This document shows positions 1,802 through 64,000 of a stretch of DNA of 64,000 nucleotides, piece after piece. Every line of letters starts with the position of its first letter. The stretch's first letter is position 1. Under the pieces are notes generated by a model. The model saw only the letters and a list, made by a program, of their open reading frames with translations. It searched no databases and was not told the DNA's origin. The position numbers and the translations under genes were made by a program. Source of the stretch: a virus (Duplodnaviria > Caudoviricetes); the IMG/VR virus record IMGVR_UViG_3300032040_000005, positions 9,936-73,935 of that record, one strand, 5' to 3'.

Positions 1802-1804
1802 AAC

Positions 1805-3325: not shown

Positions 3326-3326
3326 A

Positions 3327-6114: not shown

Positions 6115-6131
6115 ACCCGTTCCTTCTTATG

Positions 6132-6154
6132 AAAAAAGGGGCCGAAGCCCCTTT
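6132..6154 (-). terminator. Rho-independent terminator
   Basis: On the - strand AAAGGGGC-TTCG-GCCCC followed by a T6 tract, downstream of the 6196..6942 gene. Confidence 0.75.
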
Positions 6155-6195
6155 AATGTTATACCTACTTATTTACATGCCTTGTCATCAAGTTC

Positions 6196-6942: not shown

Positions 6943-6966
6943 GGTCTATCCCCATCCTTCCGTCAA

Positions 6967-7497: not shown

Positions 7498-7560
7498 TAC
7501 ATTGACTCCAATCATTCAAGAGTTAGTTGGGTGAAGGGCGTTAACCCCTCACCCGTTACA

Positions 7561-8745: not shown

Positions 8746-8760
8746 AAGTTAAACCTTTTC

Positions 8761-9945: not shown

Positions 9946-10286
9946 GCGTCATCTCCATCACGGCGAATGGCATCAATGTCTGCTTCCGATTCAGCAATAG
10001 CTTCTTTAGCCATTTCCGCTTTACGACCAATCTCATTAAGAAACTGGGTAAACGAGCCAATAGCGTCAATGTCCCGCAAGATACGTTCTTGCACTTGTGG
10101 CGATTGTGTATTCCCATCTGCCTTTGCATGAACAAGACGAACGGCTTCAGCACTTAGATACTGATCAACGACCAGCTTTTTAAAGTCACGGTTCTTTTCA
10201 AGACGCCCGAGAGCTTTAGCCAAATCTACCATGTCGTTAAGTTCTTTAATGTTCAGCTCAAGTTCAACAATGTCGTTATGGCTCAT
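9942..10286 (-). CDS. N4 gp58-like protein
   Basis: 114 aa with a RLEKNRDFKKLV motif; synteny. Confidence 0.65.
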   Translation of the reverse strand: MSHNDIVELELNIKELNDMVDLAKALGRLEKNRDFKKLVVDQYLSAEAVRLVHAKADGNTQSPQVQERILRDIDAIGSFTQFLNEIGRKAEMAKEAIAESEADIDAIRRDGDDA

Positions 10287-10371
10287 AATAAATCCAGTTC
10301 CTTTAAATTAAGTACAGTAGTTATCAAGACACGAAGATAATGAATTAAAAAACAAAATATCCATTTATTTA

Positions 10372-16900: not shown

Positions 16901-17595
16901 ATAGAACCATCGCCAACAGCGAGGCCCAAGGTATAGGGGTCAATTGGAAGCACCTTTTCTGGGTAGTCGACCGGCCCAGCCAAAGGAATCCAGACACGAT
17001 TCTCTTTACCCTTTGGATTCTTAGCGGTTTTGTTCCGACTTGTCGTCAGCTTGAGCTTCAGTAACTCGGACGTTGTCAGATCTCGGCGATCCAGGTAATT
17101 GACTCTTTTTCCTGCCACGCGCTTCTGGCGCTGATGGATCACGGTATTGATATGATCTTCGCTGACCTTCAGCATACGCCCGTCTTCAAGAACCAATTGG
17201 TACATAGGCTTGTTGAAAACAACACTCTTGGCTGTCACATCGGCGGGCGCACCATCCTCACCAAAGACTTGTTCGCCCACTTGAATATTTGCAACCGATT
17301 TCCAACCAGCAGGCGTCGGCAGCATTGTGTCCCGGGCTAGTGCCTTCGCCATGCCACGGTGGCACAGGTTCGCAATCCGTGTACCGCCCTGGTACAGCGT
17401 ATCGAGCATGTAGTAATGAACCACCGGTGTAAGGTGTTCCTCACCTTCGGAACCGTTCACCAACTTAATGAACGTCACAAACTCCAATGCGAAGTCACTG
17501 GGTACATACCCTGGATTGACTTCATAACTCACAGCATTCAGGTAATCCTCTACCCCCATAATACTCTTGAACGCATCCGCTACCGGATCAGTCAT
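13951..17595 (-). CDS. terL: Terminase large subunit (N4 gp68-like) with two inteins; ~536 aa after splicing
   Basis: Removing the inteins restores HRGMAK|TT (Walker A) and GYGAK|TGVRG. Also LAVLDD (Walker B), a nuclease TTDFA motif and HDDFID. Confidence 0.93.
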   Translation of the reverse strand: MTDPVADAFKSIMGVEDYLNAVSYEVNPGYVPSDFALEFVTFIKLVNGSEGEEHLTPVVHYYMLDTLYQGGTRIANLCHRGMAKALARDTMLPTPAGWKSVANIQVGEQVFGEDGAPADVTAKSVVFNKPMYQLVLEDGRMLKVSEDHINTVIHQRQKRVAGKRVNYLDRRDLTTSELLKLKLTTSRNKTAKNPKGKENRVWIPLAGPVDYPEKVLPIDPYTLGLAVGDGSMDRKVGSCRLHGHVDDLPHLIKHIPTECGKILLDKRFPSVGRVGLLGLGKHFKTLGLACHGNQKFVPEIYKLGSVEQRLAVLQGLMDTDGTVYKNGCCAFTSNSYRLAMDVRELVLSLGGTAQVVPMNDAYRCNVRLNLPLFRLPRKAERQHFSCGLRVPLVAIEPIAQVPSQCLSVNSPGYTFLAGEYVVTHNTTVMGEYLFLFIAVYSLIPGFGKVRLAIYVSDSIENGVKNMRKNLEFRRDNSEFLMRYLPVIKFTDTRWEFRNRDGQVFIVKGYGAKALSLDSVLYTDMGTTTIGECQVGDRIFGADGELTSITQKSGVFLKPMYELRLVDGRSIKVSEDHINSVVINTNPNNTVRWEDKNLTTKELLQQPLIHTKKGNLGHRGTSSKSLVFVKNAQPLDYTEKVLPVDPYTLGVVLGDGRIQKPSCSVELTTHIDDLPTYQQHIPYEFGKGRFDTRNPNTWTQSIRRLGPALKAMDLGVHGNDKFIPEVYFRGSIEQRQALLQGLMDTDGTVCKSGRTNFCSVSPRLLADTERLVRSLGATAQRCKKPFCTEIWLNEDMFRLPRKRDRQRFDRKGDKVAVASITRIADEPSQCIAVDNEERQFLTGEYFRTHNTGVRGAKEMGIRPGLAVLDDLISDEDARSATVIGAVEDTVKKAVTYALHPTLNMIIWSGTAFNAKDPLYKAVESGAWQVNVFPVCEQFPCTKEEFRGSWPDRFPYEYVKAAYDMAVLEGSVETFNQELMLRIMSEEDRLVQDSEIMWYSLRNILNNKNVFNFYITTDFATSESEKSDYSVISVWAYNNNGDWLWVDGICKRQLMDKNVNDLFRLAQEYRPQGVGIEVSGQQGGFIPWIMNEMMRRNVYFPLVSENNNGKPGLRPTTNKLERFNVIVPQFKMNKIFFPIEKKASPELIECMNEISLASKGGFRSKHDDFIDTISMLPLLTAWKPTETGDLSDRDGSGLWEVDDDEEEDSRMSSYIV
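15049..16059 (-). mobile_element. Intein 2 (337 aa) with LAGLIDADG endonuclease
   Basis: Begins ALSLD, VSEDHIN, LGVVLGDG and LQGLMDTDG helices, PSQCIAV, ends RTHN before Thr. Confidence 0.9.
16321..17343 (-). mobile_element. Intein 1 (341 aa) with LAGLIDADG endonuclease, inserted in TerL Walker A
   Basis: Begins ALARD, block B VSEDHIN, LGLAVGDG and LQGLMDTDG helices, block F PSQCLSV, ends VTHN before Thr. Confidence 0.9.
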
Positions 17596-39054: not shown

Positions 39055-39390
39055 ATGGATATTAAACACAGCACAGAGTTACTGGATTTCGTAGGCGCAA
39101 TCATTGTCAGCGTTATCTCAGGTATCATATCTATTGCTCGCAGAGTTACTGCGGGACACAAAGCATCTATACTTTGGGTCATTAGTGAATTTATGATGGC
39201 CATTATGTCCGGTTACCTGATGTACACCGCTTACCCGCATATACGTGAATCCATGCCCGCATGGTTTACGTTGCCTATTGCAGTGGCTTTCTCAGCTCAC
39301 GTAGGTGGTAAAGTATTCCAGGAAGTTGAGAGTGCCCTCATTAGGAAATACACATCTGTTATCGGTATACGCCCATGCGACCATAGATAA
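39055..39390 (+). CDS. Putative holin
   Basis: 111 aa with three hydrophobic segments (SVISGIISI, EFMMAIMSGY, AFSAHVGG). Confidence 0.55.
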   Translation: MDIKHSTELLDFVGAIIVSVISGIISIARRVTAGHKASILWVISEFMMAIMSGYLMYTAYPHIRESMPAWFTLPIAVAFSAHVGGKVFQEVESALIRKYTSVIGIRPCDHR

Positions 39391-40771: not shown

Positions 40772-41042
40772 TGTGACCTGCCCATACTGTGAAGCTGAAC
40801 AAGAGATAAACCACGACGATGGTTACGGCTATGAAGAAGGCGAGAAGCATGAACAAGAGTGCTTTACTTGCGAGCGAGAGGTCAATTTCACAACTTCAAT
40901 CAGCTTCAACTATGACGTTTTCTGCAAAGACGGCGACCACGTAATGGAACCCTTCGGTGACAAGTGGCCACTTATGTATGAGTGCGAAAACTGTAACTTC
41001 TTTGAACGCAGAAAGGATGAAACCAATGAAAGAGCTACATGA
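40764..41042 (+). CDS. Zinc-ribbon protein
   Basis: CPYC, CFTC and CENC motifs. Confidence 0.6.
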   Translation: MSDVTCPYCEAEQEINHDDGYGYEEGEKHEQECFTCEREVNFTTSISFNYDVFCKDGDHVMEPFGDKWPLMYECENCNFFERRKDETNERAT

Positions 41043-41241
41043 AAGCAAAGGTAAAAAGGGCGGGCGTTGTAATGTAACTGCCTGTCAGCAACCAGGTGCC
41101 TGGTATTTCAACAAATCTACCAGGGCTTACTACTGCCAAGAATGTGCCAACGAGGTAAACTATTTTGGTGGCCGATCACTCACTTTGGAGTTGTACGGTA
41201 CGCCTCTATTGTGTGAACTGGATGAAACCAATGACGGATAG
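41026..41241 (+). CDS. Small Cys-rich protein
   Basis: CNVTAC...YYCQECA. Confidence 0.55.
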   Translation: MKELHESKGKKGGRCNVTACQQPGAWYFNKSTRAYYCQECANEVNYFGGRSLTLELYGTPLLCELDETNDG

Positions 41242-41440
41242 AAGCATGAAAAATCTGTATGAAAAATTCTGTAATGGTGATCCTATTACTGATGAGCAGC
41301 TTGACGAAGGCATCAGATTTTTCCATATGTTGACAATCAAACTCTCCAGCTTGGGACCAGTTTTCCGTTTAGCACAAAATGAATCAAATAGAGTGCTTAG
41401 TAGGTTGCAAGATTATTATGATGCCAGGAATGAAACATGA
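41231..41440 (+). CDS. Hypothetical protein
   Basis: 69 aa, coupled to the previous gene. Confidence 0.55.
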   Translation: MTDRSMKNLYEKFCNGDPITDEQLDEGIRFFHMLTIKLSSLGPVFRLAQNESNRVLSRLQDYYDARNET

Positions 41441-41583
41441 TCTTCATTTCCTTTGTACTATTCATGACCTTGGGAATGTTGATGGAATCGCAAGGTCTAA
41501 CAGACCTCGTAGCCTATGCCTTCATGGGTTACGCGTGTGGAGCCATTGGTTTTAACAAACAAAACTTTCTAACAGCGAGCTAG
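41437..41583 (+). CDS. Small membrane protein
   Basis: 48 aa hydrophobic ORF; ATGA overlap. Confidence 0.4.
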   Translation: MIFISFVLFMTLGMLMESQGLTDLVAYAFMGYACGAIGFNKQNFLTAS

Positions 41584-41586
41584 TTT

Positions 41587-41742
41587 ATGGAGAATGAAAC
41601 CAGGTACAACATCGTAACGGATGATGATGAGATTTTAGAGTATGATCTCGATCTGTTCTTAGCTGAAACCCTGCTCTGCTCTCACATCAACGGTGGAGCT
41701 GATGCTTACATTGAAATTATCGAACCAGAGGACACACAATGA
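41587..41742 (+). CDS. Small acidic protein
   Basis: 51 aa; ATGA overlap with xis. Confidence 0.45.
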   Translation: MENETRYNIVTDDDEILEYDLDLFLAETLLCSHINGGADAYIEIIEPEDTQ

Positions 41743-41987
41743 ATCCAATACTTAATCCCGCCTACGTTCAAATCCCAAAGAAAGAAGCTGCCACCATTTT
41801 AGGCATCAGTGTCTCTGAATTGGATCGTCGTAGAATCAGTGACGACCGCTGCCCGAATGGTTTCAAAGAGCGTGATGATAAAATGGCTCCGGTGAAGTTC
41901 CGACTCTCGGACATCTACACGTACTCCGAAGCCATTATGAACAGTGCTATTCCGGCTACTCAGTTAAAAGGTGCATCGGTCTCTTAG
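41739..41987 (+). CDS. xis: Excisionase / recombination directionality factor (AlpA-like HTH)
   Basis: KKEAATILGISVSELDRRR...CP.G...VKFRLSDI winged HTH; convergent with int and overlapping it by 32 bp. Confidence 0.75.
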   Translation: MNPILNPAYVQIPKKEAATILGISVSELDRRRISDDRCPNGFKERDDKMAPVKFRLSDIYTYSEAIMNSAIPATQLKGASVS

Positions 41988-43185
41988 GCTTACCCTTACC
42001 CGTTTCTAAATAATCCAGATAATCCGCGTACCAACACATCATTTCCCGGCGCTTATCCAAATACTGTGCCTGGTTATATACCCCAGCGTCACCGCCTTCA
42101 ACGTGTGCTAACTGCATCTCTACGTAGTCTTTATCCCAACGGTGTTCACGTAACAACGTGCTGGCTGTGTGCCTTGCACCGTGACCTACAAGCTTGCCTT
42201 TGTACCCGACTAACCGCAGACACTTATTAATCGTGTTCTCGCTCATCGTGGGGTTCTTAGTACCAAAGCCTGGGAACACATACTTACCCCGTCCTGACGT
42301 TTCATGCATGGTTCGCAGTTCAGCCACTGTTTGAGGTGCCAACGGGATAAGGTGATCTCGACGCATCTTCATTTTTGCAGCGGGTATCGTCCATAAGGCG
42401 TTATCCAAATCCATATCAACCCATTCACTAAATCGTGCCATGCCTGGGCGACACGCTGTACGCAGCACCAGGCGTGTCATGGTTAAGGTGATCTGTTTAC
42501 TCGTAGACTTTCTAAGGGCCATAAGGAAAGCCGGCAACTCGTCTTCTAATAGATGAGGGTGCGGCGTTTCCTGATGACCTTGTTGAGCCAGATGACGTAA
42601 CTCACTTGCGGGGTTTACAGTGCAATGGCCTTGAGCCATCGCCAGTGAGAATATTTGATTGATCCAGAGTCTTACTTTACCGGCAATGGCACCGGCACCC
42701 CGGGCTTCCATCTTTGATTGGATCGCCGCACAGTCTAATCGTGTGACTGCATCCAACGCTTTGTGGCCAATGGCCGGATAGATGTCTTTGTTCAAATACA
42801 ACTCATATTGATAAAGGCTACCCGCTACGCGGCCTGCCTTTATCTTACGGTCATACCAGTCTTCAGCGGCTTCTTTAAAAGTCATCTTTTCTTGTATACC
42901 CGAACCCAAGTGTACAAGATCTTCACCGTCTGAGGATTGGCTCAGCAGCTCTTTAGCATTCTCGCGGGCCAACTTACCGGAGACTCGCGGGTATCCGCCC
43001 AGACCTTTCCAGGCCCATTTACCGTTGGGACGCTTATACCGTAAGACCCAGGACTTGCCACCGTTAGTCTTCACACGGAAGTACAAACCTTCGCTGTCAC
43101 GCTCCTGGTAATCCGTGGTGTCTGGCTCTAAGGCGTTGAGAACACTGTCTGCCAGGGGACGCCGCTTAATCGCTGATCGCTTCAT
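41956..43185 (-). CDS. int: Tyrosine integrase, P4 family, with N-terminal arm-binding domain
   Basis: GLYFRV...KSWVLRY arm domain; catalytic R (ACRPG), HGAR, LAH and Y (YNQAQY) all present. Confidence 0.93.
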   Translation of the reverse strand: MKRSAIKRRPLADSVLNALEPDTTDYQERDSEGLYFRVKTNGGKSWVLRYKRPNGKWAWKGLGGYPRVSGKLARENAKELLSQSSDGEDLVHLGSGIQEKMTFKEAAEDWYDRKIKAGRVAGSLYQYELYLNKDIYPAIGHKALDAVTRLDCAAIQSKMEARGAGAIAGKVRLWINQIFSLAMAQGHCTVNPASELRHLAQQGHQETPHPHLLEDELPAFLMALRKSTSKQITLTMTRLVLRTACRPGMARFSEWVDMDLDNALWTIPAAKMKMRRDHLIPLAPQTVAELRTMHETSGRGKYVFPGFGTKNPTMSENTINKCLRLVGYKGKLVGHGARHTASTLLREHRWDKDYVEMQLAHVEGGDAGVYNQAQYLDKRREMMCWYADYLDYLETGKGKPKRPMHLLTE

Positions 43186-43197
43186 GTACCTCTCCTT

Positions 43198-43432
43198 GTA
43201 TACCCGAACCGGAAGTATACACAGAGGTATACACGAAAGGTACTACTGCTGTGGGTAAGCAGGAAGAGGCTTGAGGGCTTGATTAGGGCTTAACGATATG
43301 ATTTAGAAGGGTATTTGTGAGGTCTGAGGAGGTGTGAAAATCTTCCGGTGGTAGCGGCGGGCTAACCCAAACCGCGCTTGTAAAACAGGTGCTTACAACT
43401 CAATAACAGTTCTGTGTACAAGCGTGTGTACA
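43198..43432. promoter_or_regulatory. Putative attP: arm-type repeats flanking a tRNA-3'-like core (43347-43361)
   Basis: GTATACAC at 43215 and 43227; TGTGTACA at 43413 and 43425 (both 12-bp period, roughly inverted relative to each other). Core on the - strand is CCCGCCGCTACCACC. Confidence 0.55.
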
Positions 43433-43475
43433 CGCTTTTCTCTACTAAGATTCTGATATTACGGGTGACCTATAG

Positions 43476-43499
43476 AAAAAGCCCCCAGTAAAGGGGGCT
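43476..43499 (-). terminator. Rho-independent terminator ending the tail/lysis operon
   Basis: On the - strand AGCCCCC-TTTACT-GGGGGC followed by TTTTT. Confidence 0.7.
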
Positions 43500-43536
43500 G
43501 TCTGTGCGAGAAGACTACGTGGGGATAGCCCCACGG

Positions 43537-43938
43537 TCAACCTGGCTTGGCTTTCATCCTGTTCACCACGCCTTCCAGGGCACCGCCACCAAAGTAGAAA
43601 GCAGCCACAAGGGCCACCGGTGTACCGAGTGTCGCGTTGTTTAGTTGGCCTACCTCTTTAGCCGCTTGCGTTAGCTGGGCACCATAGACCGGATCAACCA
43701 TACCTGCTGCCAGCATGAATCCAGCACACAGTACCCAGATGAGTACGAAGGGAATCGCAAGCACCAGCATCAACAGACGCTGTGCAATCTTAAAAGGTTC
43801 GTACCCTTTGAGCAGGCTCAGGAATCCTTTAGACTTTTCCTCATCTGTGTAGAACGCAGCATCGACGCCATTGTAAATACCATCGGCTGCTTTCTTGATG
43901 ACGTTCTCATTACCGAACAGTGTTGCAAATATCCCCAT
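43537..43938 (-). CDS. Putative holin (GTA 3TM-holin-like)
   Basis: FYTDEEK motif, two hydrophobic helices, FYFGG near the C-terminus. Confidence 0.6.
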   Translation of the reverse strand: MGIFATLFGNENVIKKAADGIYNGVDAAFYTDEEKSKGFLSLLKGYEPFKIAQRLLMLVLAIPFVLIWVLCAGFMLAAGMVDPVYGAQLTQAAKEVGQLNNATLGTPVALVAAFYFGGGALEGVVNRMKAKPG

Positions 43939-43955
43939 ACCGTTCTCCTGTTGGT

Positions 43956-44201
43956 TTACTGCAATGCCAGCATTTGCTTGGCATACCGTACATCAGCTTC
44001 AAAGCTCACCAGACAATGATCCATTTGCCAAAAGAATGTTGCGTTAATAATATTCCGTGCTTTATTCCACCCTGGCTTGTGCCGGTTAACGTAACACCGA
44101 GCTGAGACGGTCTGATCGTGATGACCCAACAGGATAAAGAGGTTCACGGTCTGGCTACACCAGGCCGCTACTCGTGAGAGAAAGCCGATCATATCGACCA
44201 A
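43956..44201 (-). CDS. Hypothetical protein
   Basis: 81 aa; DQTVSARCY...FFWQMDHC. Confidence 0.55.
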   Translation of the reverse strand: MVDMIGFLSRVAAWCSQTVNLFILLGHHDQTVSARCYVNRHKPGWNKARNIINATFFWQMDHCLVSFEADVRYAKQMLALQ

Positions 44202-44283
44202 ACCATGGTAGGCAATACAGCGTACATAGTGCCACCAGTTTCGCTAGTTACAGTGTTACAGTTGGATCGGTAAAAGTGGATTT

Positions 44284-44877
44284 TCATAATGCTGACGCCT
44301 GTATGAACAGGTCATCTAGTTGTGTATCTGTCAACCCCAACGCTGCACCTAATAGTGACACTAATTGTTTACCTCTATCCACATACTGAGAGTATTCCCA
44401 TTCAATAGTCGCATTGGTTTTGTCCGGCTCCGTCATAGCTGCTAACGCACCTTCCACATCTTGCAGCAAAGCGTTAACCGCCAAAGCCAGTCTGGCCTGC
44501 CTCATGGTCACCCTGTCAGGTGTTATATTGGTCGGGTAATATGTGAGGTCGGGTACATCGGTATTGACCCAGTAGTCGGCCAGTACTTTTGCCAGTTTCT
44601 TCAGCATTGAATGCTGGGCTTCATTTTCTGGGTCACCCTGTAATGAGGCAATCTCACTACCAAATGTCGGGTAGTGTGTTTTCATAATCTCTTCAATAAT
44701 GGTGTTACGATCCGACAACTTATCAACACGAGCCGTTTGGTACGTATATGCAGTCTCAGCGGTACCCTCTACATTCGTTCGTGACAGCACCTTTTTATTA
44801 AAGTTAATCAAGAGTCTGCGACCCATGACTTGATACGTGTTCAGCTCTACTGGGGATTCTGTCGTTGAGTTAGACAT
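44284..44877 (-). CDS. Two-domain protein; C-terminal half resembles tail-fibre assembly chaperones
   Basis: C-terminal VTMRQARLAL...IEWEYS...LGLTDTQLDDLFIQA; overlaps the RT stop by 8 bp. Confidence 0.55.
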   Translation of the reverse strand: MSNSTTESPVELNTYQVMGRRLLINFNKKVLSRTNVEGTAETAYTYQTARVDKLSDRNTIIEEIMKTHYPTFGSEIASLQGDPENEAQHSMLKKLAKVLADYWVNTDVPDLTYYPTNITPDRVTMRQARLALAVNALLQDVEGALAAMTEPDKTNATIEWEYSQYVDRGKQLVSLLGAALGLTDTQLDDLFIQASAL

Positions 44878-45829
44878 TCATTAGTACCTCTCTTCCTGGT
44901 TGCCAAAGTCCTTTATTGTTTAATGGTTTTATCCACCCCCAATAAGCGGTAATACTCATTATCCATTTAATACGCACAGACTCCAGATATCTATATTTTA
45001 TAGTAGCGCGTAGACGAGTACAGTCGCTGAAAAAGACGTACCCACAAAAATCTAAACCATTGCTGGCCAGGGATTGAATAATCCAAGTGGGTTTAATTAT
45101 AAGTCCTAGTTTATTCACCTGTTGCTCAATTCTTTTTTGTGCTGACCTTAACCATTTTTTACAAGAACCCAATACAATAAGATCATCGCAGTAACGGAAG
45201 TAATACTTCACTTTTAAGTTTTGTTTTGCGTACCAATCCACAGTAGATAAAACCATATTACCCAGCATCTGGGATATGTAATTGCCTATGGGGAGCCCTT
45301 CAACACTTTCAATAATATTATCCAGCAATACGAGAGTACGTGGGCATTTTATATGACGCCGAACGCATAGCTTGCTGATCTGCTGTTTCACCGATGGGTA
45401 GAACTTCTTAATGTCCATTTGCAGATAGTAGGTAGGCCTGCCTTTCCGTATGGCTTTCTGCACACGTCGTCGTGCGTCTGAGGTGCCACGGCCCTTCAGT
45501 GATTGAAAAGTGTCCCTTATCAGTGAACGTTTCCAGATATCACCAACAACTTGCATAATGGCGTGGTGAACAATTCGATCTGGGAAATAAGGCAGTACGT
45601 GTATCACACGAAGCTTACTGCCTTCTACCCGTTCCATAACGCGATACTCGTTGGTTTGATACGTACCATTCATAAGTTGATCGTGTAGCTGCTGGAGGTA
45701 AAACTCCTCGTGCTTATTAACCTCCACCACTTCTTTATAATGGCCCTTACCTTTTGAGGCTTTTTTATGAGCCTCATGTAAATTGTCCATAGATGCGATT
45801 TCATCAAAAAGATTACCGTACCGTTTCAT
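44870..45829 (-). CDS. DGR reverse transcriptase (Brt-like)
   Basis: 319 aa; KGRGT, MDIKKFYPSV, DGR-type LPIGNYISQ (GxxxSQ), RYCDD, GLDFCGY; no maturase or endonuclease domain. Confidence 0.95.
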   Translation of the reverse strand: MKRYGNLFDEIASMDNLHEAHKKASKGKGHYKEVVEVNKHEEFYLQQLHDQLMNGTYQTNEYRVMERVEGSKLRVIHVLPYFPDRIVHHAIMQVVGDIWKRSLIRDTFQSLKGRGTSDARRRVQKAIRKGRPTYYLQMDIKKFYPSVKQQISKLCVRRHIKCPRTLVLLDNIIESVEGLPIGNYISQMLGNMVLSTVDWYAKQNLKVKYYFRYCDDLIVLGSCKKWLRSAQKRIEQQVNKLGLIIKPTWIIQSLASNGLDFCGYVFFSDCTRLRATIKYRYLESVRIKWIMSITAYWGWIKPLNNKGLWQPGREVLMNV

Positions 45830-45944
45830 AGCTATCCTTTAATGCTATACAGCGCCCAAGCGTTTCAGACCAACACGGTTTACTAAGCTTTTGTGGGATG
45901 CGTTTACGCCTTTCGGCGGGATTCTTTGTTTTCCAATATTCTAT

Positions 45945-46060
45945 AGCAAGCTGCCTGGCGATACTCCGATTCCGATTGCCTGAGCCATTATTCACATTGA
46001 CGTAAGAAGGACTGACATTCGTACCATTCGAGGTGTTACCACCTACATGAGCTATCTTCC
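45945..46060 (-). repeat. DGR template repeat (TR), 116 nt
   Basis: Rich in AAT/AAC codons in the VR frame; matches VR at every non-adenine position. Confidence 0.95.
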
Positions 46061-46117
46061 GTGCCTAACAAAGAACCCCTCATTTTAAGTCATTATTCTC
46101 CTTAATTATTTAATAGA

Positions 46118-49100
46118 TTATTGAATTTTGGAAAAAGCAAGCCGCCCGGCGATACCCCGATACCGAAGGCCCGAGCCATCAGTCACACCGACGCAAGAAG
46201 GACCGACATCCGCACCATGCGAGGCGCTACCACCCACAAGAGCCATCCTCCAGCCTGAAGACTGGTAGTAATAATCAGCAAACGCGGTAGATGAATTACC
46301 GCTTGAATCGGTTACAACATCACCGAGGGTATTATGCTGCACATTGCGGATATAACCATTAGCACCTGGTGCAGCTACACCCAGTTGTGTGTACCCGACA
46401 GTGGTATCATCAACGAAGCTGGCGATGTCATTACTGACATACCATACCCGTGCATTGACGTTAAACCCGTCGCAGAATTGCCAAGCGTTACCCCAGAAGT
46501 TTTCGATACCCCGGTAATTCATCCATGCAGTATCTCGTACAGAACTAACCACGCCACCTGAACCATTACCAATAATATTGGATTTACCAGCGACCGAGTG
46601 AGGTGAATCTGTTTGACTGGATGACGAAGCCGGATACCCTGTGCTAACACTGTTGTTACCGGCTGCTAAGAGTGCTTGACCGTCGAACCCACCGTACTCC
46701 ACAAAGAACAGCAGTTTTATCAAGGACCACTGCCAGAACGTCATCTGCGACCAATTGGAGCCCCGGTTACTGGCCAATTGTCGCATCTGTGCGCGGGTCA
46801 CACCAACCATCGGATACTTACCAGATACAGAACCTAAAACATCAGCCGTGTAGTCTACTCTTGAATCATTGTTGTCGAGGTTCAGACCATCAATGTATGT
46901 TAGACCACTGGTGTCATACACGGATGCATGATACGCACCTACATAGATCGCCTGCTTTTCGCTTGATGGGTTGGTGTAATACCACATGTCTACAGCAGGG
47001 TCGCGTTGTAACGTACCACCGATTGCGAATGCAGGGTGCAACACAAAACCTGATCTAGGGTAATCACTGATTTCCCGCTTAACATCACCATTAAATAGTG
47101 TGGATACCCGTACATAACACTTGGGGATTTCAACCATGACCTGACCATCGGTACCATCCAGAACGGCAGCAGTCCCGTCGGCTTTCAGCGTTGAGTCGTT
47201 CAGGCTAAGGTAATAGTTCACCGTGCCATCATCATTCAACAGGCAACGACGCATCCGTTCGTGGATCTGTGTGACACCTGTGGAACCGGCATATCTGCTG
47301 TATACGTCTGAAGTTGGGTCCCAAACCATATTGGCAGAGATTCTTGGTTCATAACGATTATCCCCTACCAGCTGTATAACAGACGCATCCGGATACTTGT
47401 CTGCTGTACCTGATTCAGCTTCAGCAAAGGTGGCTTTCTCAACAGAACCTGCCGCCTCAGTGGTGGCTAAGCCGGCCACTTTAAGCCATGCAGTGCCTGA
47501 GTAGACCCGCACCTCGTTGGCAACCGTATTGAAGTAGAGATCCCCGGGCGTAACATTTACCGTAGGCGCTGACGCCAGTGGCCCATGATATTGGTTCTGA
47601 AACGTGGTCAGTGAGCTTGCGGCATTGGTTGCACTGGTACTTGCGGCAGAGGCCGAGCCAGAAGAGTTACTCGCAGACGTGGCGGCATTACTGGCAGAGG
47701 TACTGGCATTGGATGCAGACCCTCCGGCATTGGTTTCAGACGTTGCCGCGTTGGTTTCGCTGGTAGACGCTGCCGTAGCACTGGCACCACCCTTGGAAGC
47801 ATAGTGCCGGCCCGAGAACTTACCCGTCTCAACGGCAACATCAACAGCCGCATTGGCCCAGTTATCGGCTTTGGTTTCACTGGTGGTTGCGTTGGTTGCA
47901 GAGGTGCTGGCATTAGAGGCTGAAGTAGCTGCGTTAGTTTTGCTTGTCGCAGCGGCTGAGGCTGAACCCGTTGCGTTGGTTTCACTCGTTTTAGAGGCCG
48001 TCTCTGACGCACTGGCCTTGGCTGCGTGATGCAGAGCAGAGAACTTGCCTGTCTCTACAGCGGTGTTTTCCAACGCTTCAGCCCACTGGTTCGCTTTGTT
48101 CTGAGACCCCAGAGCAGCGGTCTCAGAGTTGCCCGCGTTGGTTTCCGAGGTGCCTGCATTACCTTCGGAGATATAAGCTGCACTGGCAGAACCAGAAGCG
48201 TTGGTTTCACTGGTGCTGCTGGCGGTCTGTGATGCCGCTGCTGCGGTCTCACTGGCTTTAGCGGCAGTTGCTGCCGTGGTGGCAACATCTTCCGGTGCCA
48301 CCCAGAAAGAGCCGGAGTAGAACTTCAGGAAATTATCCGTGGTATTGAAATACACCGCACCGGTTACCAAAGCATTACCGTCGTTGTCCACGGTTGGGTC
48401 CGAGGCTTTATCCCCCAGGTACTGATCACCGAACTGATCGAACAGACTCTCAGCACTGTTCTTAGCCGCGACGGCACCGGTCTCTGCCGTCTGTGCAGCG
48501 GTCGCTGAACTGCTGGCCGCACTGGCGCTGCCACTGGCATTGGTTTCGCTGGTCGCAGCATTACCGGCAGATAGGGAAGCTGCTGACTCAGAACCAGACG
48601 CATTGGTCTCCGATAGAGCAGCGGCAGTCTCAGAGCCACTGGCGTTGGTTGCACTGACACCCGCATTGGTCTCGCTCAGCGCCGAAGCAATGGCCGAGTC
48701 CTCTGACTTGATGGCGTGGTGCAAAGAAGAATACTGACCCGTCTCAACGGCCACATCTTCCAGTTCCTCTGCCCACTTCTCTGATTTGTTCTCAGATGCC
48801 AGGGCGCTAGATGCGGAACTATCGGCTGCGGTGCGATCTTGTCCAGTGGCCACCCGATCTGTAGCCGTAGCGTCGGAGTCCTGCTGCGTCACTACTCGGT
48901 CGGCGGCAGTGGCGGTTGCATCATCACCTGTGGCACTCCTGTCTATACCTGTTTGAGCTGCATCAGCAGCCGTATCCAAGGTGTCTTGGTTGGTAGCAAC
49001 TCGATCCAACCCCGTCTGTACTGCATCAGCAGATGTATCAACTCGATCCAAGTTAGTTTGGAAGCGGTCTGCTGCTGTATCCAAGGTATCTTGGTGGGTG

Positions 49101-49756
49101 GCTGCTAAGTCAGCAGCCGTATCTATCGTGTCCTGATTCGTTGCAACGAGGTCAGCTCCTGTCGCCACAACAGCGTTATCAGCATTAGTTTCACTGACCG
49201 CTGACGCATCTTCGGAGGCCTGGGCAGCGACCACATTGGCGTCTGTTGCTGCTTTGTTGGTGGCCACTTCCGCCCGATCCGCTTCAACGGCATCACGAGT
49301 AGCATACAAGGCGTCCAGAGCCTCAGCCGGAACGGTATTACCATCCAATACAAACGACCCTTCTGGTTGATCCAGTTGCACACGAACGGTCTGATCCAGT
49401 ATGTCTACCAAGCTTTGCGCCTCGGTTAAAACACTGATTCGTCCGTTCAGGAGAGTGATTTCTTTCCCGTTAAGCTGACGTCTTAGGTTCAGGTAGTAGT
49501 GGCCTTGGGACAAACCCGCTGTCAGAGTTTTATCCAGAACTATGTAGAAAGTACCCAGGACCGCATCGGCTGGGTAAATCGTAAGTGACGGGATATACAG
49601 TTCAGCGTCTGTATCAACCGTAAGCGGATTACGCTTCAGGGTGACTTCCAGACCCCAGTTGGTAATGTCCGATGGGTTGTTAGCCTCATCGGTTACCGTA
49701 AATCGGGCTGCAAAGTCATCGCCCTGATATACTTTAAAAAGTGTCTGGTCTTTCAT
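46118..49756 (-). CDS. Long tail fibre / receptor-binding protein, DGR target (Mtd-like C-type-lectin C-terminus)
   Basis: N-terminal YQGDDF anchor-type domain, long Ala/Ser/Thr repeats, NYRGIENFWGNAWQFCDG, then VR ALVGG...GRLAF. Confidence 0.9.
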   Translation of the reverse strand: MKDQTLFKVYQGDDFAARFTVTDEANNPSDITNWGLEVTLKRNPLTVDTDAELYIPSLTIYPADAVLGTFYIVLDKTLTAGLSQGHYYLNLRRQLNGKEITLLNGRISVLTEAQSLVDILDQTVRVQLDQPEGSFVLDGNTVPAEALDALYATRDAVEADRAEVATNKAATDANVVAAQASEDASAVSETNADNAVVATGADLVATNQDTIDTAADLAATHQDTLDTAADRFQTNLDRVDTSADAVQTGLDRVATNQDTLDTAADAAQTGIDRSATGDDATATAADRVVTQQDSDATATDRVATGQDRTAADSSASSALASENKSEKWAEELEDVAVETGQYSSLHHAIKSEDSAIASALSETNAGVSATNASGSETAAALSETNASGSESAASLSAGNAATSETNASGSASAASSSATAAQTAETGAVAAKNSAESLFDQFGDQYLGDKASDPTVDNDGNALVTGAVYFNTTDNFLKFYSGSFWVAPEDVATTAATAAKASETAAAASQTASSTSETNASGSASAAYISEGNAGTSETNAGNSETAALGSQNKANQWAEALENTAVETGKFSALHHAAKASASETASKTSETNATGSASAAATSKTNAATSASNASTSATNATTSETKADNWANAAVDVAVETGKFSGRHYASKGGASATAASTSETNAATSETNAGGSASNASTSASNAATSASNSSGSASAASTSATNAASSLTTFQNQYHGPLASAPTVNVTPGDLYFNTVANEVRVYSGTAWLKVAGLATTEAAGSVEKATFAEAESGTADKYPDASVIQLVGDNRYEPRISANMVWDPTSDVYSRYAGSTGVTQIHERMRRCLLNDDGTVNYYLSLNDSTLKADGTAAVLDGTDGQVMVEIPKCYVRVSTLFNGDVKREISDYPRSGFVLHPAFAIGGTLQRDPAVDMWYYTNPSSEKQAIYVGAYHASVYDTSGLTYIDGLNLDNNDSRVDYTADVLGSVSGKYPMVGVTRAQMRQLASNRGSNWSQMTFWQWSLIKLLFFVEYGGFDGQALLAAGNNSVSTGYPASSSSQTDSPHSVAGKSNIIGNGSGGVVSSVRDTAWMNYRGIENFWGNAWQFCDGFNVNARVWYVSNDIASFVDDTTVGYTQLGVAAPGANGYIRNVQHNTLGDVVTDSSGNSSTAFADYYYQSSGWRMALVGGSASHGADVGPSCVGVTDGSGLRYRGIAGRLAFSKIQ
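46136..46251 (-). repeat. DGR variable repeat (VR), 116 nt, at the 3' end of the tail fibre gene
   Basis: 22 mismatches to TR, all at TR adenines (16 to G, 3 to C, 3 to T). Confidence 0.95.
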
Positions 49757-49853
49757 AAAAATACCCCTAACCGTTAATCAACAATCAGGGGTTATGGTAA
49801 AGGAATGGTTTTGGGGTTGCCTATTTAATTTACGGCAACTCGAATACTGCTTT

Positions 49854-50954
49854 CTACAGTATTCGAGTTGCCGTTAGCATTAGGGTGACTGTGCCAGTAT
49901 ACCAAGTGCTACTACTGTTGGTATTGCTAGCAGTTATTTTCATTGTGCCCTGCGTTACTCTCATATTAATTGTCATTATTGGCACAATAACATCTACCGG
50001 TTCTGATGCTCTTATGACTCCTAGTGTACTAGCAGCGGAAAGAATACCGTTAGAATTGGTAATTGTAGCTGTAAAAAGGTAAACACCTTCAGAGGGAATA
50101 TACCCTAACGTCACCGATGAACCACCTCTAAACTCCCATACATTTTTACTGAAATTTTGTGTGTTCTGTATTCCGCTTATAGCCAAGTCCTTGTATGTAT
50201 CTGCAATAGTCTTAGTACCTTTTTTTATTAAACCTCTTCCATTCATTAGACTTAATTGGTAATTACCTGGCGTAGCCACACTATTAATAAACTGTACTCT
50301 CATTCCACCACTTAGCTTTCCTTGGTAATCAATCGAATTCATTAACTCCCCAAAACACAGAAAAGGTACACTACTCAATTCAACACCACCAACATTAAAA
50401 GTATTTTTTGTTATCTCAATACTTGTTCTTGAAAACCTAAAACTATCTAGAGTATCTACACCTTTAATATCTACATCAAAGGCCACAAAGTATAAGGAAT
50501 TCATTGGGTTTTGACTCCGTATCCCCAACTGCCTTGTACTAGGTAACCAGTTATTTTGTCTGCTTCTACCATCAGAGTATACAAAAGTACCTGTAGTCAG
50601 TAGACCTCCGTAGCTCTGGTCTACTTCTACAGCCCTATTCATTTGGATAGTGTCATTTACAAAAGCAATAAAAGTACGTCGGTTCCCTGTCGCACTCCCA
50701 AATAGGTAATTTTTAAGTAGAGTCATTGTTGGGGAATTGCTAAGTGTAATTGCGATTTCATACATTCCGTCACTGCCATGGGTGTATGCGTATTCGCTTG
50801 GGTCAGGGTCAAATACCTGAAATCCTGTATAGTTTATATCGCTGTGAAGGACTGTATTAGTTGTAGGCTGACCTTTAATTATTGATAGGTCAGTGTATCC
50901 CCGAGTTAAATGCAAAAGTGGTTTACCATTTTCTTTACCAATAAAAATACTCAT
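49854..50954 (-). CDS. AT-rich putative tail/receptor-binding protein
   Basis: 366 aa, beta-rich, located between two tail genes. Confidence 0.5.
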   Translation of the reverse strand: MSIFIGKENGKPLLHLTRGYTDLSIIKGQPTTNTVLHSDINYTGFQVFDPDPSEYAYTHGSDGMYEIAITLSNSPTMTLLKNYLFGSATGNRRTFIAFVNDTIQMNRAVEVDQSYGGLLTTGTFVYSDGRSRQNNWLPSTRQLGIRSQNPMNSLYFVAFDVDIKGVDTLDSFRFSRTSIEITKNTFNVGGVELSSVPFLCFGELMNSIDYQGKLSGGMRVQFINSVATPGNYQLSLMNGRGLIKKGTKTIADTYKDLAISGIQNTQNFSKNVWEFRGGSSVTLGYIPSEGVYLFTATITNSNGILSAASTLGVIRASEPVDVIVPIMTINMRVTQGTMKITASNTNSSSTWYTGTVTLMLTATRIL

Positions 50955-50964
50955 AAATTAGCTC

Positions 50965-52572
50965 CTAGCCTATATAGATGAACTTATTATCTAGGTCCAC
51001 CACAAAGTCCCCAGAAGCAGATGACATTTTTCCCGCAGTAACCTCACCTAAATCGGCTGTAATTGCAGCCAATGCCGTGACGTTTACCTCATCTGCTATT
51101 ATTTTTTTACCTCTGAAATTCTCAGCGGTAAGGTCAAACACAACTGCTTTGTTCATGAAGACTTCGCCATTCGCAACAATAAAGGGGTATGTTTTACTGC
51201 CTAGCTTACCAATCCAGAATCTATCAACATCAAAGCCAGCTTCAACGGTGCCTGTGCCACTGTCCGTGGCCAACCCAAAACCACCTACAAGCGTATTGCC
51301 ATTAATGTCCACCTGTACCTTCACGGTGTACTCAGCGCTCAGGACATCTAACGCATCCTTGTAGCTCACCATCCGTTGCTCAACGTTGGCTGTACCACCC
51401 TCACCATCGACAATCTGTACACCCTTCACCACTTCAGCGACAGAAGACATACCGAGCCAAGTGCCGCCACCTGCGGTACACAGTGCCCGTGTGTTCTTTG
51501 CAGCGTCAGGGTGTCCGTCGATCATGCAGAAACCGACCTGGGTGTTGCTGAAGTCCTGTACTGTGCCTGCCACCGTGTTACCGATGTACATATCCATAAG
51601 GGACCATAAATCACCGTCCCATACGTAACCCTGGTCTCCATCAGCAGAGTCAAACCAGACATCATCAAGGTTCTGGGCAATAGGGGCACCCACCTGACGA
51701 AACACGTTCAACCCTTGTTGAGCCTTCTCCACGTCCCAGGCATTACCACTCCAGCGGTACAACGTATTACCGTCATCAATGTCTACCCACAGATCATTCC
51801 GGTAAGTTGTAGAATCCGGTGGCGGTGTCGTCTGGAAAAACACCTGAGCCTTACGACCTACAGACGCTTCCAATGTGTCTATGCTTTGAGCCATAGCCGT
51901 ATCAGCATTAGCACGTGCAATCACTTCTTGCGTGATCAGCGCCATGCTCTGGTCAGCGACAGCACCTACCACATTGATTTGCTGGATCTGTGCTGAATCA
52001 CTTGTTTCTAAACGTGCAACCTCATTAACAAGAACCGTACCTACACCGTCTACCTGTGTCTGGAAATCTGCCAGGGCAATCAACAACTCTTCATATTGAA
52101 CTTGAGAATTAGAGATATTGGTTAACAGGTCTGCACGTATGGACTCAATTCTATTTATTTCTGAACTCAGTGATGTTGCCAGTTGGCCTTGTGAGATCTG
52201 ACCACTTAACATCGCTATAGTTTGTTCAATAGTAGGACGTGCCATAGCAGAAGCAGGCCCAGTCAAATCACCTACCGTACCGTTCACAGATACAATCTCG
52301 ATCCAGTAGTAATAACGGATGGCCGCACTTGGGTCTATTCTGTCGTAATGGATTTCACCCGTAACCGTCTTTAGTTTTACTTTAGTTAATGGATCAGCAT
52401 TACTACTACGATATAGCAGTACATGCGAGACTGCCTCCGGCAGTAATTGTGGATATGTCCAAAATACATCTATACCTCCAAACGCAGGTACAGCTTGTAA
52501 TATTGAGTTATTTAAATCAGGATCACCAGGCTTCGGGAAGTTACCGAAACCTGTTCCGCACGAATCAGCCAT
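50965..52572 (-). CDS. Tail tip / central fibre protein (DUF1983-like C-terminus)
   Basis: Fn3-like N-terminus, coiled coil, YTVKVQ...VGGFGL...FDVDRFWIG...PFIVANGEVFMN. Confidence 0.7.
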   Translation of the reverse strand: MADSCGTGFGNFPKPGDPDLNNSILQAVPAFGGIDVFWTYPQLLPEAVSHVLLYRSSNADPLTKVKLKTVTGEIHYDRIDPSAAIRYYYWIEIVSVNGTVGDLTGPASAMARPTIEQTIAMLSGQISQGQLATSLSSEINRIESIRADLLTNISNSQVQYEELLIALADFQTQVDGVGTVLVNEVARLETSDSAQIQQINVVGAVADQSMALITQEVIARANADTAMAQSIDTLEASVGRKAQVFFQTTPPPDSTTYRNDLWVDIDDGNTLYRWSGNAWDVEKAQQGLNVFRQVGAPIAQNLDDVWFDSADGDQGYVWDGDLWSLMDMYIGNTVAGTVQDFSNTQVGFCMIDGHPDAAKNTRALCTAGGGTWLGMSSVAEVVKGVQIVDGEGGTANVEQRMVSYKDALDVLSAEYTVKVQVDINGNTLVGGFGLATDSGTGTVEAGFDVDRFWIGKLGSKTYPFIVANGEVFMNKAVVFDLTAENFRGKKIIADEVNVTALAAITADLGEVTAGKMSSASGDFVVDLDNKFIYIG

Positions 52573-63525: not shown

Positions 63526-63926
63526 AAATCCAAGTTACTATGAACCAACAAGCCATCACAGAAGCCATCCGCGACTACGTGGTTAAGAACGGCATGACCA
63601 GCCCCGTACAGGATGTTGAGTTCACCGTCACCCGTAAAGGCGGGACCAGTATCAGTGCTGAAGTTATCCTCGGTAACGACGCTGTTACAACCGGCGTAGG
63701 CCAGGCAAAACCAGGTGCGGATAAGACAGTCGTAAGCAAACGTCCCCCTGCTGCCGCCAAAACACCCGTAGAACCTGTGAAGGAGCCTGAAGTAGAAACT
63801 CCTGAAGTAGCTGAAGTGCCTGCACCGGTTGAAGCTGAAGAGAAGCCACCGTTTGACGTAGACGACGAAGCTGAAAACGACAGCACTAAAGAAGAACCGG
63901 CATTGAGTAAGAAGTTGTTTGGTTAA
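63522..63926 (+). CDS. Conserved N4-like hypothetical protein
   Basis: MKIQVTM.Q..I..AI N-terminus, low-complexity acidic tail. Confidence 0.6.
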   Translation: MKIQVTMNQQAITEAIRDYVVKNGMTSPVQDVEFTVTRKGGTSISAEVILGNDAVTTGVGQAKPGADKTVVSKRPPAAAKTPVEPVKEPEVETPEVAEVPAPVEAEEKPPFDVDDEAENDSTKEEPALSKKLFG

Positions 63927-63938
63927 TAGGTGGATTCT

Positions 63939-64000
63939 ATGACACTTCTAAAAGCAATAGGTACAGGTGTAATCGCTGCATTGATTACGGCCCTCGCATT
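63939..64000 (+). CDS. Start of a small membrane protein (partial)
   Basis: MTLLKAIGTGVIAALITALA; runs off the window. Confidence 0.45.
   Translation, partial: MTLLKAIGTGVIAALITALA

What the first reader, a model, noticed from the sequence alone, without database searches (positions are those of the whole stretch)
41739..43432. Integrase, excisionase and attP-like site: a temperate N4-like phage
Seen: an intact P4-family tyrosine integrase, a convergent AlpA-like xis and an att-like intergenic region inside a genome with vRNAP, RNAPII and the N4 capsid/portal/terminase set. Established: N4 and its well-studied relatives are lytic. Inference: this phage can lysogenise, which also fits the known enrichment of DGRs in temperate phages.
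Basis: partly seen in the sequence, partly recalled or inferred. Interest (0 to 1): 0.88.

Follow-up and report, generated by a model that had tools for sequence, protein, structure and literature searches.

The report
Temperate N4-like phage, tRNA-Leu attachment site
This 74-kb N4-like phage carries a working-looking integration module, and relatives are found inserted at tRNA-Leu genes in bacterial chromosomes, so this "strictly lytic" phage family has temperate members, as a 2023 metagenome survey already proposed.

Summary
Observation confirmed; interpretation supported, but the idea is not new.

**What is in the window**
- The window is 64 kb of a 73,935-bp circularly assembled N4-like (Schitoviridae) genome.
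- It carries an intact three-domain P4/CP4-type tyrosine integrase (41956-43185, minus strand).
- An 82-aa winged-helix gene (41739-41987) converges on it.
- A 315-bp attP lies at 43186-43500.

**The attachment site**
- It equals the 3' end of tRNA-Leu(CAA) genes.
- Conserved arm-type repeats flank it.

**Evidence for integration**
- A bacterial contig family carries a decayed copy of this int-xis-att module (88% nt identity). It sits at tRNA-Leu(CAA) between 14-bp direct repeats identical to the core.
- A related brine-metagenome contig has the empty site.
- A sister phage (integrase 62%, portal 71% identical) is a complete 73-kb prophage with an intact vRNAP gene, inserted at tRNA-Leu(UAG). 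Both junctions, a 22-bp repeat and an exact empty attB allele were recovered.

**Limits**
- The window's exact phage was seen only in its free form.
- No repressor was recognised.
- "AlpA-like" holds only at fold level.
- Zheng et al. 2023 (PMC10654107) already reported N4-like IMG/VR genomes with adjacent integrase and DGR, and N4-like proviruses. The att sites are the new part here.

The parts
41739..41987 (+). 82-aa winged-helix DNA-binding protein, the probable excisionase / recombination directionality factor. It is the last gene of the rightward operon. Its ATG overlaps the stop of the upstream ORF, and its 3' end overlaps the int 3' end by 32 nt.
   Evidence: ORF. No Pfam or PHROG hit for this copy. 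Orthologs hit phrog_66 'excisionase and transcriptional regulator' weakly, E about 4e-4, and HTH_17 below its cut-off. AlphaFold model pLDDT 87. Best Foldseek PDB matches are MerR-family wHTH, RdfS excisionase 8dgl and P2 Cox 4lhf, at E 0.035-0.2. It sits next to int in every relative examined.
41956..43185 (-). P4/CP4-57-type tyrosine integrase, 409 aa, intact.
   Evidence: Pfam Arm-DNA-bind_3, Phage_int_M and Phage_integrase. phrog_1. NCBIfam PRK09692, E 2.2e-58. Catalytic R246, K273, H335, R338, H361 and Y370 are invariant. The N-terminal domain matches CP4-like integrase 3jtz.
43197..43233 (.). P' arm. Three arm-type sites: two direct TGTATAC copies 12 nt apart, plus one inverted copy that runs into the int ribosome-binding site.
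   Evidence: Motif scan. The sites keep the same positions relative to the int ATG in L082, L083, the G003 attL, L085 and the L221 scar.
43349..43362 (-). attP core (14 bp), identical to the last 14 nt of tRNA-Leu(CAA) genes, CCA included. It is the crossover region.
   Evidence: Invariant in the attP of L082, L083, L271 and L188. It is the 3' end of tRNA-Leu(CAA) in metagenome contigs. It is the direct repeat flanking the integrated remnant in L291, and occurs once in the empty site L157.
43414..43433 (.). P arm. Two arm-type sites (TGTACAC) 12 nt apart.
   Evidence: Equivalent pairs occur in L082, L083 and the G003 attR.
43480..43499 (-). Intrinsic-terminator-like hairpin ending the leftward operon just before attP.
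   Evidence: It is retained in the attR-side fragment of the remnant L291.
43186..43500 (.). The whole attP region (P' arm, core, P arm).
   Evidence: This is exactly the interval at which the sister provirus record G003 is opened. The remnant L291 is also split here: window 41739-43375 on one side and 43349-43564 on the other.
43537..43938 (-). 133-aa membrane protein (phrog_9646) flanking attP on the P side. Its homolog is the last prophage gene before attR in the sister prophage.

Best explanation
This is a functional site-specific integration module belonging to an N4-like (Schitoviridae) phage. It lets the circularised 74-kb genome insert into the 3' end of a host tRNA-Leu(CAA) gene.

**Proposed mechanism (inferred).**
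- The integrase's N-terminal arm-binding domain binds the TGTA(T/C)AC repeats on both arms of attP.
- Its core-binding and catalytic domains exchange strands within the 14-bp core (window 43349-43362).
- That core is identical to the last 14 nt of the tRNA gene, so the tRNA stays intact after insertion.
- The 82-aa winged-helix protein encoded convergently with int most likely acts as the excisionase/directionality factor.
- It is the last gene of the rightward operon, so it would be made whenever the lytic programme runs. That would bias the reaction away from integration.

**Shown here.**
- The module is intact.
- The core is the sequence duplicated around an integrated relative of this module.
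- An empty attB exists.
- A sister phage of the same clade exists as a complete prophage.

**Inferred, not shown.**
- That the window's own phage integrates today.
- The role of the 82-aa protein.
- How the prophage is kept silent and how it is induced.
For: **1. Intact integrase.** Three domains and an invariant R-K-H-R-H-Y set.

**2. attP architecture.**
- The 14-nt core equals the tRNA-Leu(CAA) 3' end.
- The arm motif occurs 6 times in 315 nt against 29 times in 64 kb, at positions conserved across relatives.

**3. Integrated relative of this module.**
- L291 5359-6989 matches window 41739-43375 at 87.7% nt identity and abuts the body of a tRNA-Leu(CAA) gene.
- L291 288-490 matches window 43349-43564 at 84% identity and abuts host DNA.
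- Both junctions carry the same 14-bp core.
- The host flanks are contiguous in L157, a contig whose JGI identifier is adjacent to that of a contig carrying this same phage.

**4. Sister prophage G003.** Integrase 62% and portal 71% identical.
- The IMG/VR 'provirus' record is opened exactly at the homologous intergenic region.
- attL lies beside tRNA-Leu(UAG) downstream of folD; attR lies before tig-clpP-clpX-lon.
- The direct repeat is an exact 22 bp.
- The empty attB allele has 100% identical flanks in contigs that encode the identical Tig protein.
- The vRNAP reading frame is uninterrupted at 3,727 aa.

**5. attL scar.** tRNA-Leu(CAA), a homologous P' arm and the first ~15 int codons lie in a 94-kb marine contig, L221.

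**6. Recombination breakpoint at the core.** Two related phages (L083, L271) are 100% identical for about 450 nt up to the last base of the core. Identity drops abruptly beyond it; the whole aligned tract averages 76.6%.

**7. Not an assembly artefact.** The same gene order is found on 19 contigs from several samples.
Against: - No integrated full-length copy of the window's exact phage was found. Its integrase and the 133-aa flank protein occur only on phage-sized or short contigs with attP intact.
- The integrated copy closest to the window is a decayed remnant: int is frameshifted, and an IS element and an autotransporter gene lie inside it. It proves a past integration, not present activity.
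- No CI-type repressor, S24 peptidase or above-threshold HTH_3 protein was found in this genome or three relatives.
- No LexA boxes were found above chance.
- The 82-aa protein is not a member of Pfam AlpA or HTH_17 by HMM. The fold matches have weak E-values (0.035 and higher), and the same fold serves transcription factors and small terminase subunits.
- The window's identity to the tRNA is 14 nt, shorter than the 27 nt in L083/L271.
Confidence: 0.85

Rival explanations
1. The module is a relic. The window's phage descends from temperate ancestors but now lives as an obligately lytic (or only pseudolysogenic) phage, and int/attP is no longer used for stable lysogeny.
For: Only free, attP-intact forms of this exact phage were recovered. 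The T-arm part of the tRNA-like segment has five mismatches, leaving a 14-nt identity. No repressor was recognised. The nearest integrated copy is a pseudogenised remnant.
Against: The integrase ORF is intact and keeps every catalytic residue. Arm sites, core, the int ribosome-binding site and the xis-like gene are all conserved. The remnant in L291 has the same degenerate T-arm segment and the same 14-bp repeat, so 14 bp was enough for integration in this lineage. Failing to see a rare integrated form in assembled contigs is weak evidence.
Confidence: 0.1
2. int-xis-attP belongs to a separate small mobile element (a satellite or integrative island) that has inserted into, or been mis-assembled with, an N4-like genome. 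It mobilises only itself.
For: Integrase relatedness does not track core-gene relatedness. G001 has one of the closest integrases (75%) but the most distant portal (61%) and vRNAP (about 30%). Integrases about 55% identical, with the same small wHTH gene, occur in unrelated 45-55-kb viral contigs. So the module is exchanged between phages.
Against: In the sister prophage attL and attR bracket the entire 73-kb N4-like genome, vRNAP included. The module sits at the same place in all the N4-like relatives checked: between the rightward DNA polymerase/early-gene block and the leftward tail-fibre block. The repeat scan of 41500-44000 found no direct repeats bracketing the module. The arrangement recurs on 19 contigs from several samples.
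Confidence: 0.03
3. The integrase serves a function other than lysogeny, for example resolving replication multimers or inverting a segment.
For: No repressor was found. The exact phage was seen only in free form.
Against: The arm-binding N-terminal domain, the complex attP with arm sites, and a core identical to a tRNA 3' end are the hallmarks of integrative, not Xer- or invertase-type, recombinases. Relatives are integrated at tRNA genes.
Confidence: 0.02

Closest known systems
N4-like 'subfamily SF8' uncultured genomes with adjacent integrase and DGR, and integrated N4-like proviruses (Zheng et al. 2023, mSystems, PMC10654107)
   Same: IMG/VR high-quality N4-like genomes that carry an integrase and a DGR side by side in one island. 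The authors proposed them as evidence for lysogeny in Schitoviridae. The window's genome is an IMG/VR record with exactly this arrangement and may be one of their four.
   Different: The paper's main text has no occurrence of 'attP' and mentions tRNA only in its host-prediction methods. It gives no att junctions or empty-site alleles for this clade; its integrated examples are mostly Moraxella proviruses of other subfamilies. I could not check its Table S4, which is not held. Identity with the published genomes is therefore unverified.
Satellite phage P4 integrase / CP4-57 IntA family, integrating into tRNA-Leu (leuX) (from my own knowledge)
   Same: The same three-domain integrase type, an attP with arm-type repeats, a core equal to the 3' end of a tRNA-Leu(CAA) gene, and a small wHTH partner gene.
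   Different: Sequence similarity is distant: the NCBIfam PRK09692 score of 198 bits is far below its 434-bit cut-off. The cargo here is a 74-kb N4-like virus with its own three-polymerase transcription scheme, not a satellite or an island.
Coliphage N4 and cultured Schitoviridae (Pollock, FSL SP-058/076, Pylas and others)
   Same: Giant virion RNA polymerase, two-subunit RNAPII, and N4-type portal, major head protein and TerL; genome about 70-74 kb.
   Different: Portal identity is at most 57%. The int-xis-attP region has no DNA match in the GenBank phage collection, and the best integrase matches there are 41-64-kb Pseudomonas phages. I did not test cultured members for integration modules; the paper says the family was regarded as strictly lytic.
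RdfS / Xis / P2 Cox-type excisionases (MerR-like winged-helix directionality factors)
   Same: The predicted fold of the 82-aa protein (strand, helix-turn-helix, wing, C-terminal helix) matches RdfS 8dgl and P2 Cox 4lhf. The gene is linked to int.
   Different: No significant sequence-family membership. The family of about 33 clusters is unannotated. Function is untested.

Membership tests
Schitoviridae (N4-like phages) | Giant virion-encapsidated RNA polymerase gene | tested here: met
   A single minus-strand ORF of about 3,700 aa spans contig 640-11736. Its central 1,500 aa hit phrog_2206 'virion RNA polymerase', E 1.5e-169.
Schitoviridae (N4-like phages) | Two-subunit RNAPII plus N4-type portal, major head protein and large terminase; genome about 70-75 kb | tested here: met
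   phrog_2166 and phrog_2051 (RNAPII), phrog_1216 (portal), phrog_1357 (major head protein) and TerL families. Genome 73,935 bp, CheckV 100%. Portal 57% identical to phage Pollock.
P4/CP4-57-type tyrosine integrases | Domain architecture Arm-DNA-bind_3 (DUF4102), then SAM-like core-binding domain, then Phage_integrase catalytic domain | tested here: met
   All three Pfam domains score above their cut-offs.
P4/CP4-57-type tyrosine integrases | Catalytic R-K-H-x-x-R-H-Y residues | tested here: met
   R246, K273, H335, R338, H361 and Y370 are invariant in a 9-sequence alignment. Assigning them to catalytic roles rests on my knowledge of the family's motifs.
P4/CP4-57-type tyrosine integrases | attP next to int, with a core identical to a tRNA 3' end and flanking arm-type repeats | tested here: met
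P4/CP4-57-type tyrosine integrases | Recombination activity | not testable with these tools
   Needs an attP x attB assay.
AlpA (PF05930) / HTH_17 (PF12728) excisionase-type regulators | Match to the family HMM above its cut-off | tested here: not met
   The window protein has no Pfam hit even at E 10. Two orthologs reach 16-18 bits against HTH_17, whose cut-off is 27. PF05930 was never reported.
AlpA (PF05930) / HTH_17 (PF12728) excisionase-type regulators | MerR-like winged-helix fold | tested here: met
   Model pLDDT 87. Top Foldseek hits are MerR-family domains and RdfS excisionase, probability 0.99 but E only 0.035-0.05. Language-model features point to HTH_17 (0.93, 179 shared features) and DUF1233 'putative excisionase'; these are leads only.
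AlpA (PF05930) / HTH_17 (PF12728) excisionase-type regulators | Controls the direction of recombination | not testable with these tools
   Only genetic linkage with int is shown.
Temperate phage (integrative lysogeny) | Integrated copies with attL/attR direct repeats and a matching empty attB | tested here: met
   Met for the clade. The sister prophage G003 has a 22-bp repeat and an exact empty allele. A decayed remnant 88% identical to the window's module has the 14-bp repeat, and L157 has the empty site. Not met for the window's exact phage, which was seen only with attP intact.
Temperate phage (integrative lysogeny) | Repressor / immunity function | tested here: inconclusive
   No Peptidase_S24 and no HTH_3 above cut-off in G000-G003. 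Many small ORFs of unknown function remain.
Temperate phage (integrative lysogeny) | Inducible, with virion production from lysogens | not testable with these tools
   Needs a cultured lysogen.

The most novel reading that the evidence does not exclude
Lysogeny in these N4-like phages is maintained without a classical CI-type repressor.

**Reasoning from what is known of N4 (my own knowledge, not tested here).**
- Early genes can only be read by the RNA polymerase that the virion injects.
- Middle genes need the early-encoded RNAPII.
- Late genes need a middle-gene activator.

An integrated genome would therefore be silent by default. The lysis-lysogeny choice would be made at the vRNAP-to-RNAPII hand-over, with the xis-like gene riding on the lytic operon. 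Induction would then need an unusual trigger, such as host-polymerase expression of vRNAP or RNAPII.

Nothing I found excludes this: no S24/CI, HTH_3 or LexA-box signal. But an unrecognised repressor among the many small ORFs is at least as likely.
Probability: 0.2. Interest if true: 0.8.

Novelty: new member of a known kind. Interest (0 to 1): 0.5.

Why it matters
N4-like phages are a textbook example of strictly lytic phages and are widely proposed for therapy on that basis. A 2023 survey claimed temperate members, resting mainly on the presence of integrase genes and on provirus calls.

For one clade, this analysis supplies:
- a defined attP, with its core and arm sites;
- the attB, a tRNA-Leu gene;
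- clean attL/attR junctions with an exact empty allele for a complete sister prophage;
- an integrated remnant of the window's own module.

Two consequences follow.
- Lysogeny of an N4-like phage becomes directly testable by PCR across the predicted junctions, plasmid recombination assays, or induction of natural lysogens.
- It raises a real mechanistic question: how does a phage whose early transcription depends on an injected virion polymerase establish, maintain and leave the prophage state?

It also means an N4-like classification alone does not guarantee a lytic lifestyle.

Tried and rejected
- **Contigs laid on the window.** Logan contigs of four brine, aquatic and permafrost runs were laid on 41500-45500. 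Where contigs bridge the core (three of the runs) they carry the attP form, and no loose ends or joints lie at 43349-43362. Contigs drop rare variants, so this is not evidence against integration.
- **Exact-protein look-ups.** The window's integrase and 133-aa flank protein, and the integrases of L082, L083 and L218, were found only in phage-form contexts.
- **IMG/VR scans.** A scan for the inferred excised attP of the sister prophage and a scan for a predicted window-type attL hybrid each gave 0 hits.
- **Scan of 301 genomes.** The full 25-nt tRNA 3' end gave one 2-mismatch hit, which served only to identify the tRNA type.
- **GenBank phage collection.** DNA searches for the module found no match.
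- **The 82-aa protein.** A PDB sequence-profile search gave nothing meaningful. hhalign against the small ORF beside the integrase of Pseudomonas phage FBPa19 gave probability 3%.
- **Other scans.** Rfam found nothing real in 41000-46500. ARAGORN found no tRNA gene in the window. LexA-box counts were at chance. The sigma-70 promoter scan found no convincing int promoter.
- **Host naming.** The Atlas look-up of the Tig protein gave only 'Pseudomonadota'. 'Brine metagenome' is the label of the runs that hold the phage; several of them may be its source sample.
- **tmRNA reading.** I first considered the core a tmRNA-like 3' end. I rejected this once ARAGORN called tRNA-Leu(CAA) on the matching loci.
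- **Published table.** I could not verify whether this genome is one of the four published SF8 genomes, because the table is not held.
Full report
**What the window is.** The window is bases 9936-73935 of a 73,935-bp IMG/VR virus record that CheckV scores as 100% complete. Its 'direct terminal repeat' is only 127 bp. I read that as a circular-assembly overlap, not as true N4-type ends.

The genome is clearly N4-like:
- a single minus-strand ORF of about 3,700 aa runs off the left edge of the window, and its centre matches phrog_2206 'virion RNA polymerase' at E 1.5e-169;
- both RNAPII subunits, an N4-type portal, the major head protein, TerL, DNA polymerase and the N4-type primase are present.

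The portal is at most 57% identical to cultured Schitoviridae. The int region has no DNA match in the GenBank phage collection.

**The observation.**
- ORF 41956-43185 (minus strand, 409 aa) is an intact tyrosine integrase. It has the Arm-DNA-bind_3, Phage_int_M and Phage_integrase domains, and R246, K273, H335, R338, H361 and Y370 are invariant among nine relatives.
- ORF 41739-41987 (plus strand, 82 aa) converges on it and overlaps it by 32 nt.
- The 82-aa ORF has no Pfam hit at any threshold, and its roughly 33 homologous clusters are all unannotated.
- Two orthologs weakly hit phrog_66 'excisionase and transcriptional regulator' and, below cut-off, HTH_17.
- An AlphaFold model (pLDDT 87) is a strand-HTH-wing-helix domain. 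Its best PDB matches are MerR-family DNA-binding domains, the RdfS excisionase and P2 Cox, with high Foldseek probability but weak E-values.
- So 'AlpA-like xis' holds as a fold-level and positional statement, not as family membership.

**The attachment site.** The 43186-43536 gap has a terminator-like hairpin at its far end (43480-43499). It holds six copies of TGTA[TC]AC in 315 nt, against 29 in the whole 64 kb:
- a pair 12 nt apart at 43414-43433;
- a pair plus an inverted copy at 43197-43233, running into the int ribosome-binding site.

I aligned the int-upstream regions of related phages (L082, L083, L271, L188). One 14-nt block is invariant, at 43349-43362 on the plus strand, while the flanks diverge. 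In L083 and L271 the identity extends to a perfect 27-nt tRNA 3' end.

On 33 loci examined, ARAGORN calls the gene tRNA-Leu(CAA) in most and tRNA-Met in a few.

**Integration is real in this clade: a complete sister prophage.** The integrase finds three other N4-sized viral records. One of them, G003, has an integrase 62% and a portal 71% identical, and IMG/VR classes it as a provirus.
- The record is the N4-like genome opened exactly between the int start codon and the homolog of the 133-aa gene, which is the window's attP interval.
- Exact-protein look-ups recovered both junctions in long bacterial contigs:
  - lpxH-ppiB-glnS-cysS-glcB-folD, then tRNA-Pro/Arg/His/Leu(UAG), then int (a 367-kb contig);
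  - tail fibres, then the 122-aa gene, then tig-clpP-clpX-lon-hupB-ppiD (a 165-kb contig).
- These junctions recur in six or more assemblies.
- The junctions share an exact 22-bp repeat that is the tRNA-Leu(UAG) 3' end.
- Contigs encoding the identical Tig protein carry the uninterrupted site. Their flanks are 100% identical to the left side of attL and the right side of attR.
- The prophage keeps an uninterrupted 3,727-aa vRNAP frame.

This also disposes of the satellite idea, because the att sites bracket the whole virus.

**Integration is real for the window's own module.** A homolog of the 82-aa protein (88% identical) lies in bacterial contigs L291-L298.
- L291 5359-6989 matches window 41739-43375 at 87.7% nt identity and ends against the body of a tRNA-Leu(CAA) gene beside flagellar genes.
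- L291 288-490 matches window 43349-43564 at 84% identity (core, P arm, terminator and the end of the 133-aa gene) and abuts host DNA.
- Both junctions carry the same 14-bp core.
- Between them lie only about 6.7 kb, including an IS transposase and an autotransporter gene, and the int is frameshifted. This is a decayed remnant.
- The two host flanks are contiguous, at 92% identity, in L157. That 118-kb contig has a JGI identifier adjacent to that of a contig carrying this very phage. The shared project is my inference.

Two further traces exist:
- an attL scar in a 94-kb marine contig, made of tRNA-Leu(CAA), a homologous P' arm and about 15 int codons;
- a recombination breakpoint exactly at the end of the core between two related phages.

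**What is not shown.** The window's exact phage was found only with attP intact:
- its integrase and flank protein occur on 19 contigs, none longer than phage size;
- where Logan contigs of the four runs laid bridge the core, they carry only the attP form;
- two hybrid-junction scans of IMG/VR were empty.

No S24/CI-type repressor, above-threshold HTH_3 protein or LexA box was found. How the prophage is silenced and induced remains open. That is a real puzzle for a phage whose early genes are, in N4, read only by an injected polymerase.

**Known or new.** Zheng et al. 2023 (PMC10654107) mined IMG/VR and reported the following:
- 54 N4-like genomes or proviruses with lysogeny genes;
- four high-quality genomes of 'subfamily SF8' with integrase and DGR adjacent in one island;
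- 40 integrated N4-like proviruses, mostly in Moraxella.

The window fits the SF8 description and may be one of those four, but I could not check their table. Their main text has no occurrence of 'attP' and mentions tRNA only in the host-prediction methods.

The concept is therefore published. The attP anatomy, the tRNA-Leu attB, the junction/empty-site sets and the fold of the small partner protein are what this analysis adds.

**Verdict.**
- Observation confirmed.
- Interpretation supported at about 0.85 for integrative capacity.
- Novelty: a new, better-documented member of a known kind.
- Interest is moderate. It rests mainly on making lysogeny of an N4-like phage experimentally tractable.

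Noticed in passing
window 13951-17595 (-): The large terminase is 1,214 aa, about twice the usual size. It has Hint, LAGLIDADG_3 and homing-endonuclease matches between its terminase halves, which suggests one or two inteins.
   Followed up: partly
L083 9380-9838 versus L271 1580-2035: Two related N4-like phages are 100% identical for about 450 nt (the 123-aa gene and P arm) up to the last base of the att core. Identity drops abruptly beyond it; the whole aligned tract averages 76.6%. This looks like module exchange by site-specific recombination at att.
   Followed up: partly
L221 146-470 (94-kb TARA scaffold): tRNA-Leu(CAA) is followed by a P' arm homologous to L082/L083 and the first ~15 codons of an integrase, then unrelated bacterial genes. 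This looks like the scar of a lost element of this integrase lineage.
   Followed up: partly
L291 566-4097: Inside the decayed prophage remnant sit an IS (rve) transposase and a 738-aa autotransporter gene between the two att copies.
   Followed up: no
G000:C1 1-127 and 73809-73935 (window 63874-64000): The record's 'direct terminal repeat' is exactly 127 bp. That looks like an assembler k-mer overlap of a circular assembly rather than genuine N4-type terminal repeats.
   Followed up: partly
window 44870-52572, compared with L268, L269 and L141: The leftward block next to attP is a variable tail-fibre cassette. The window and the L218 type have a DGR reverse transcriptase with a 1,212-aa target. 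L269 has an RCC1/WD40 fibre. G003 has Laminin_G_3 and Peptidase_S74 fibres, and no RT was called in the ~10 kb of L268, L269 or L141 that was read.
   Followed up: no
L085 about 9800-9830; L086 3635-3718; L002: Other members of this integrase lineage carry different tRNA 3' ends at the same distance upstream of int. L085 has a tRNA-Phe-like end. A 37-kb prophage has tRNA-Leu(UAG), and its Zymobacter copy L002 shows only the partial tRNA end.
   Followed up: no
window 39055-39390 (+): A holin (phrog_6854, E 4e-32) lies in the rightward block upstream of the DUF551/xis genes.
   Followed up: no
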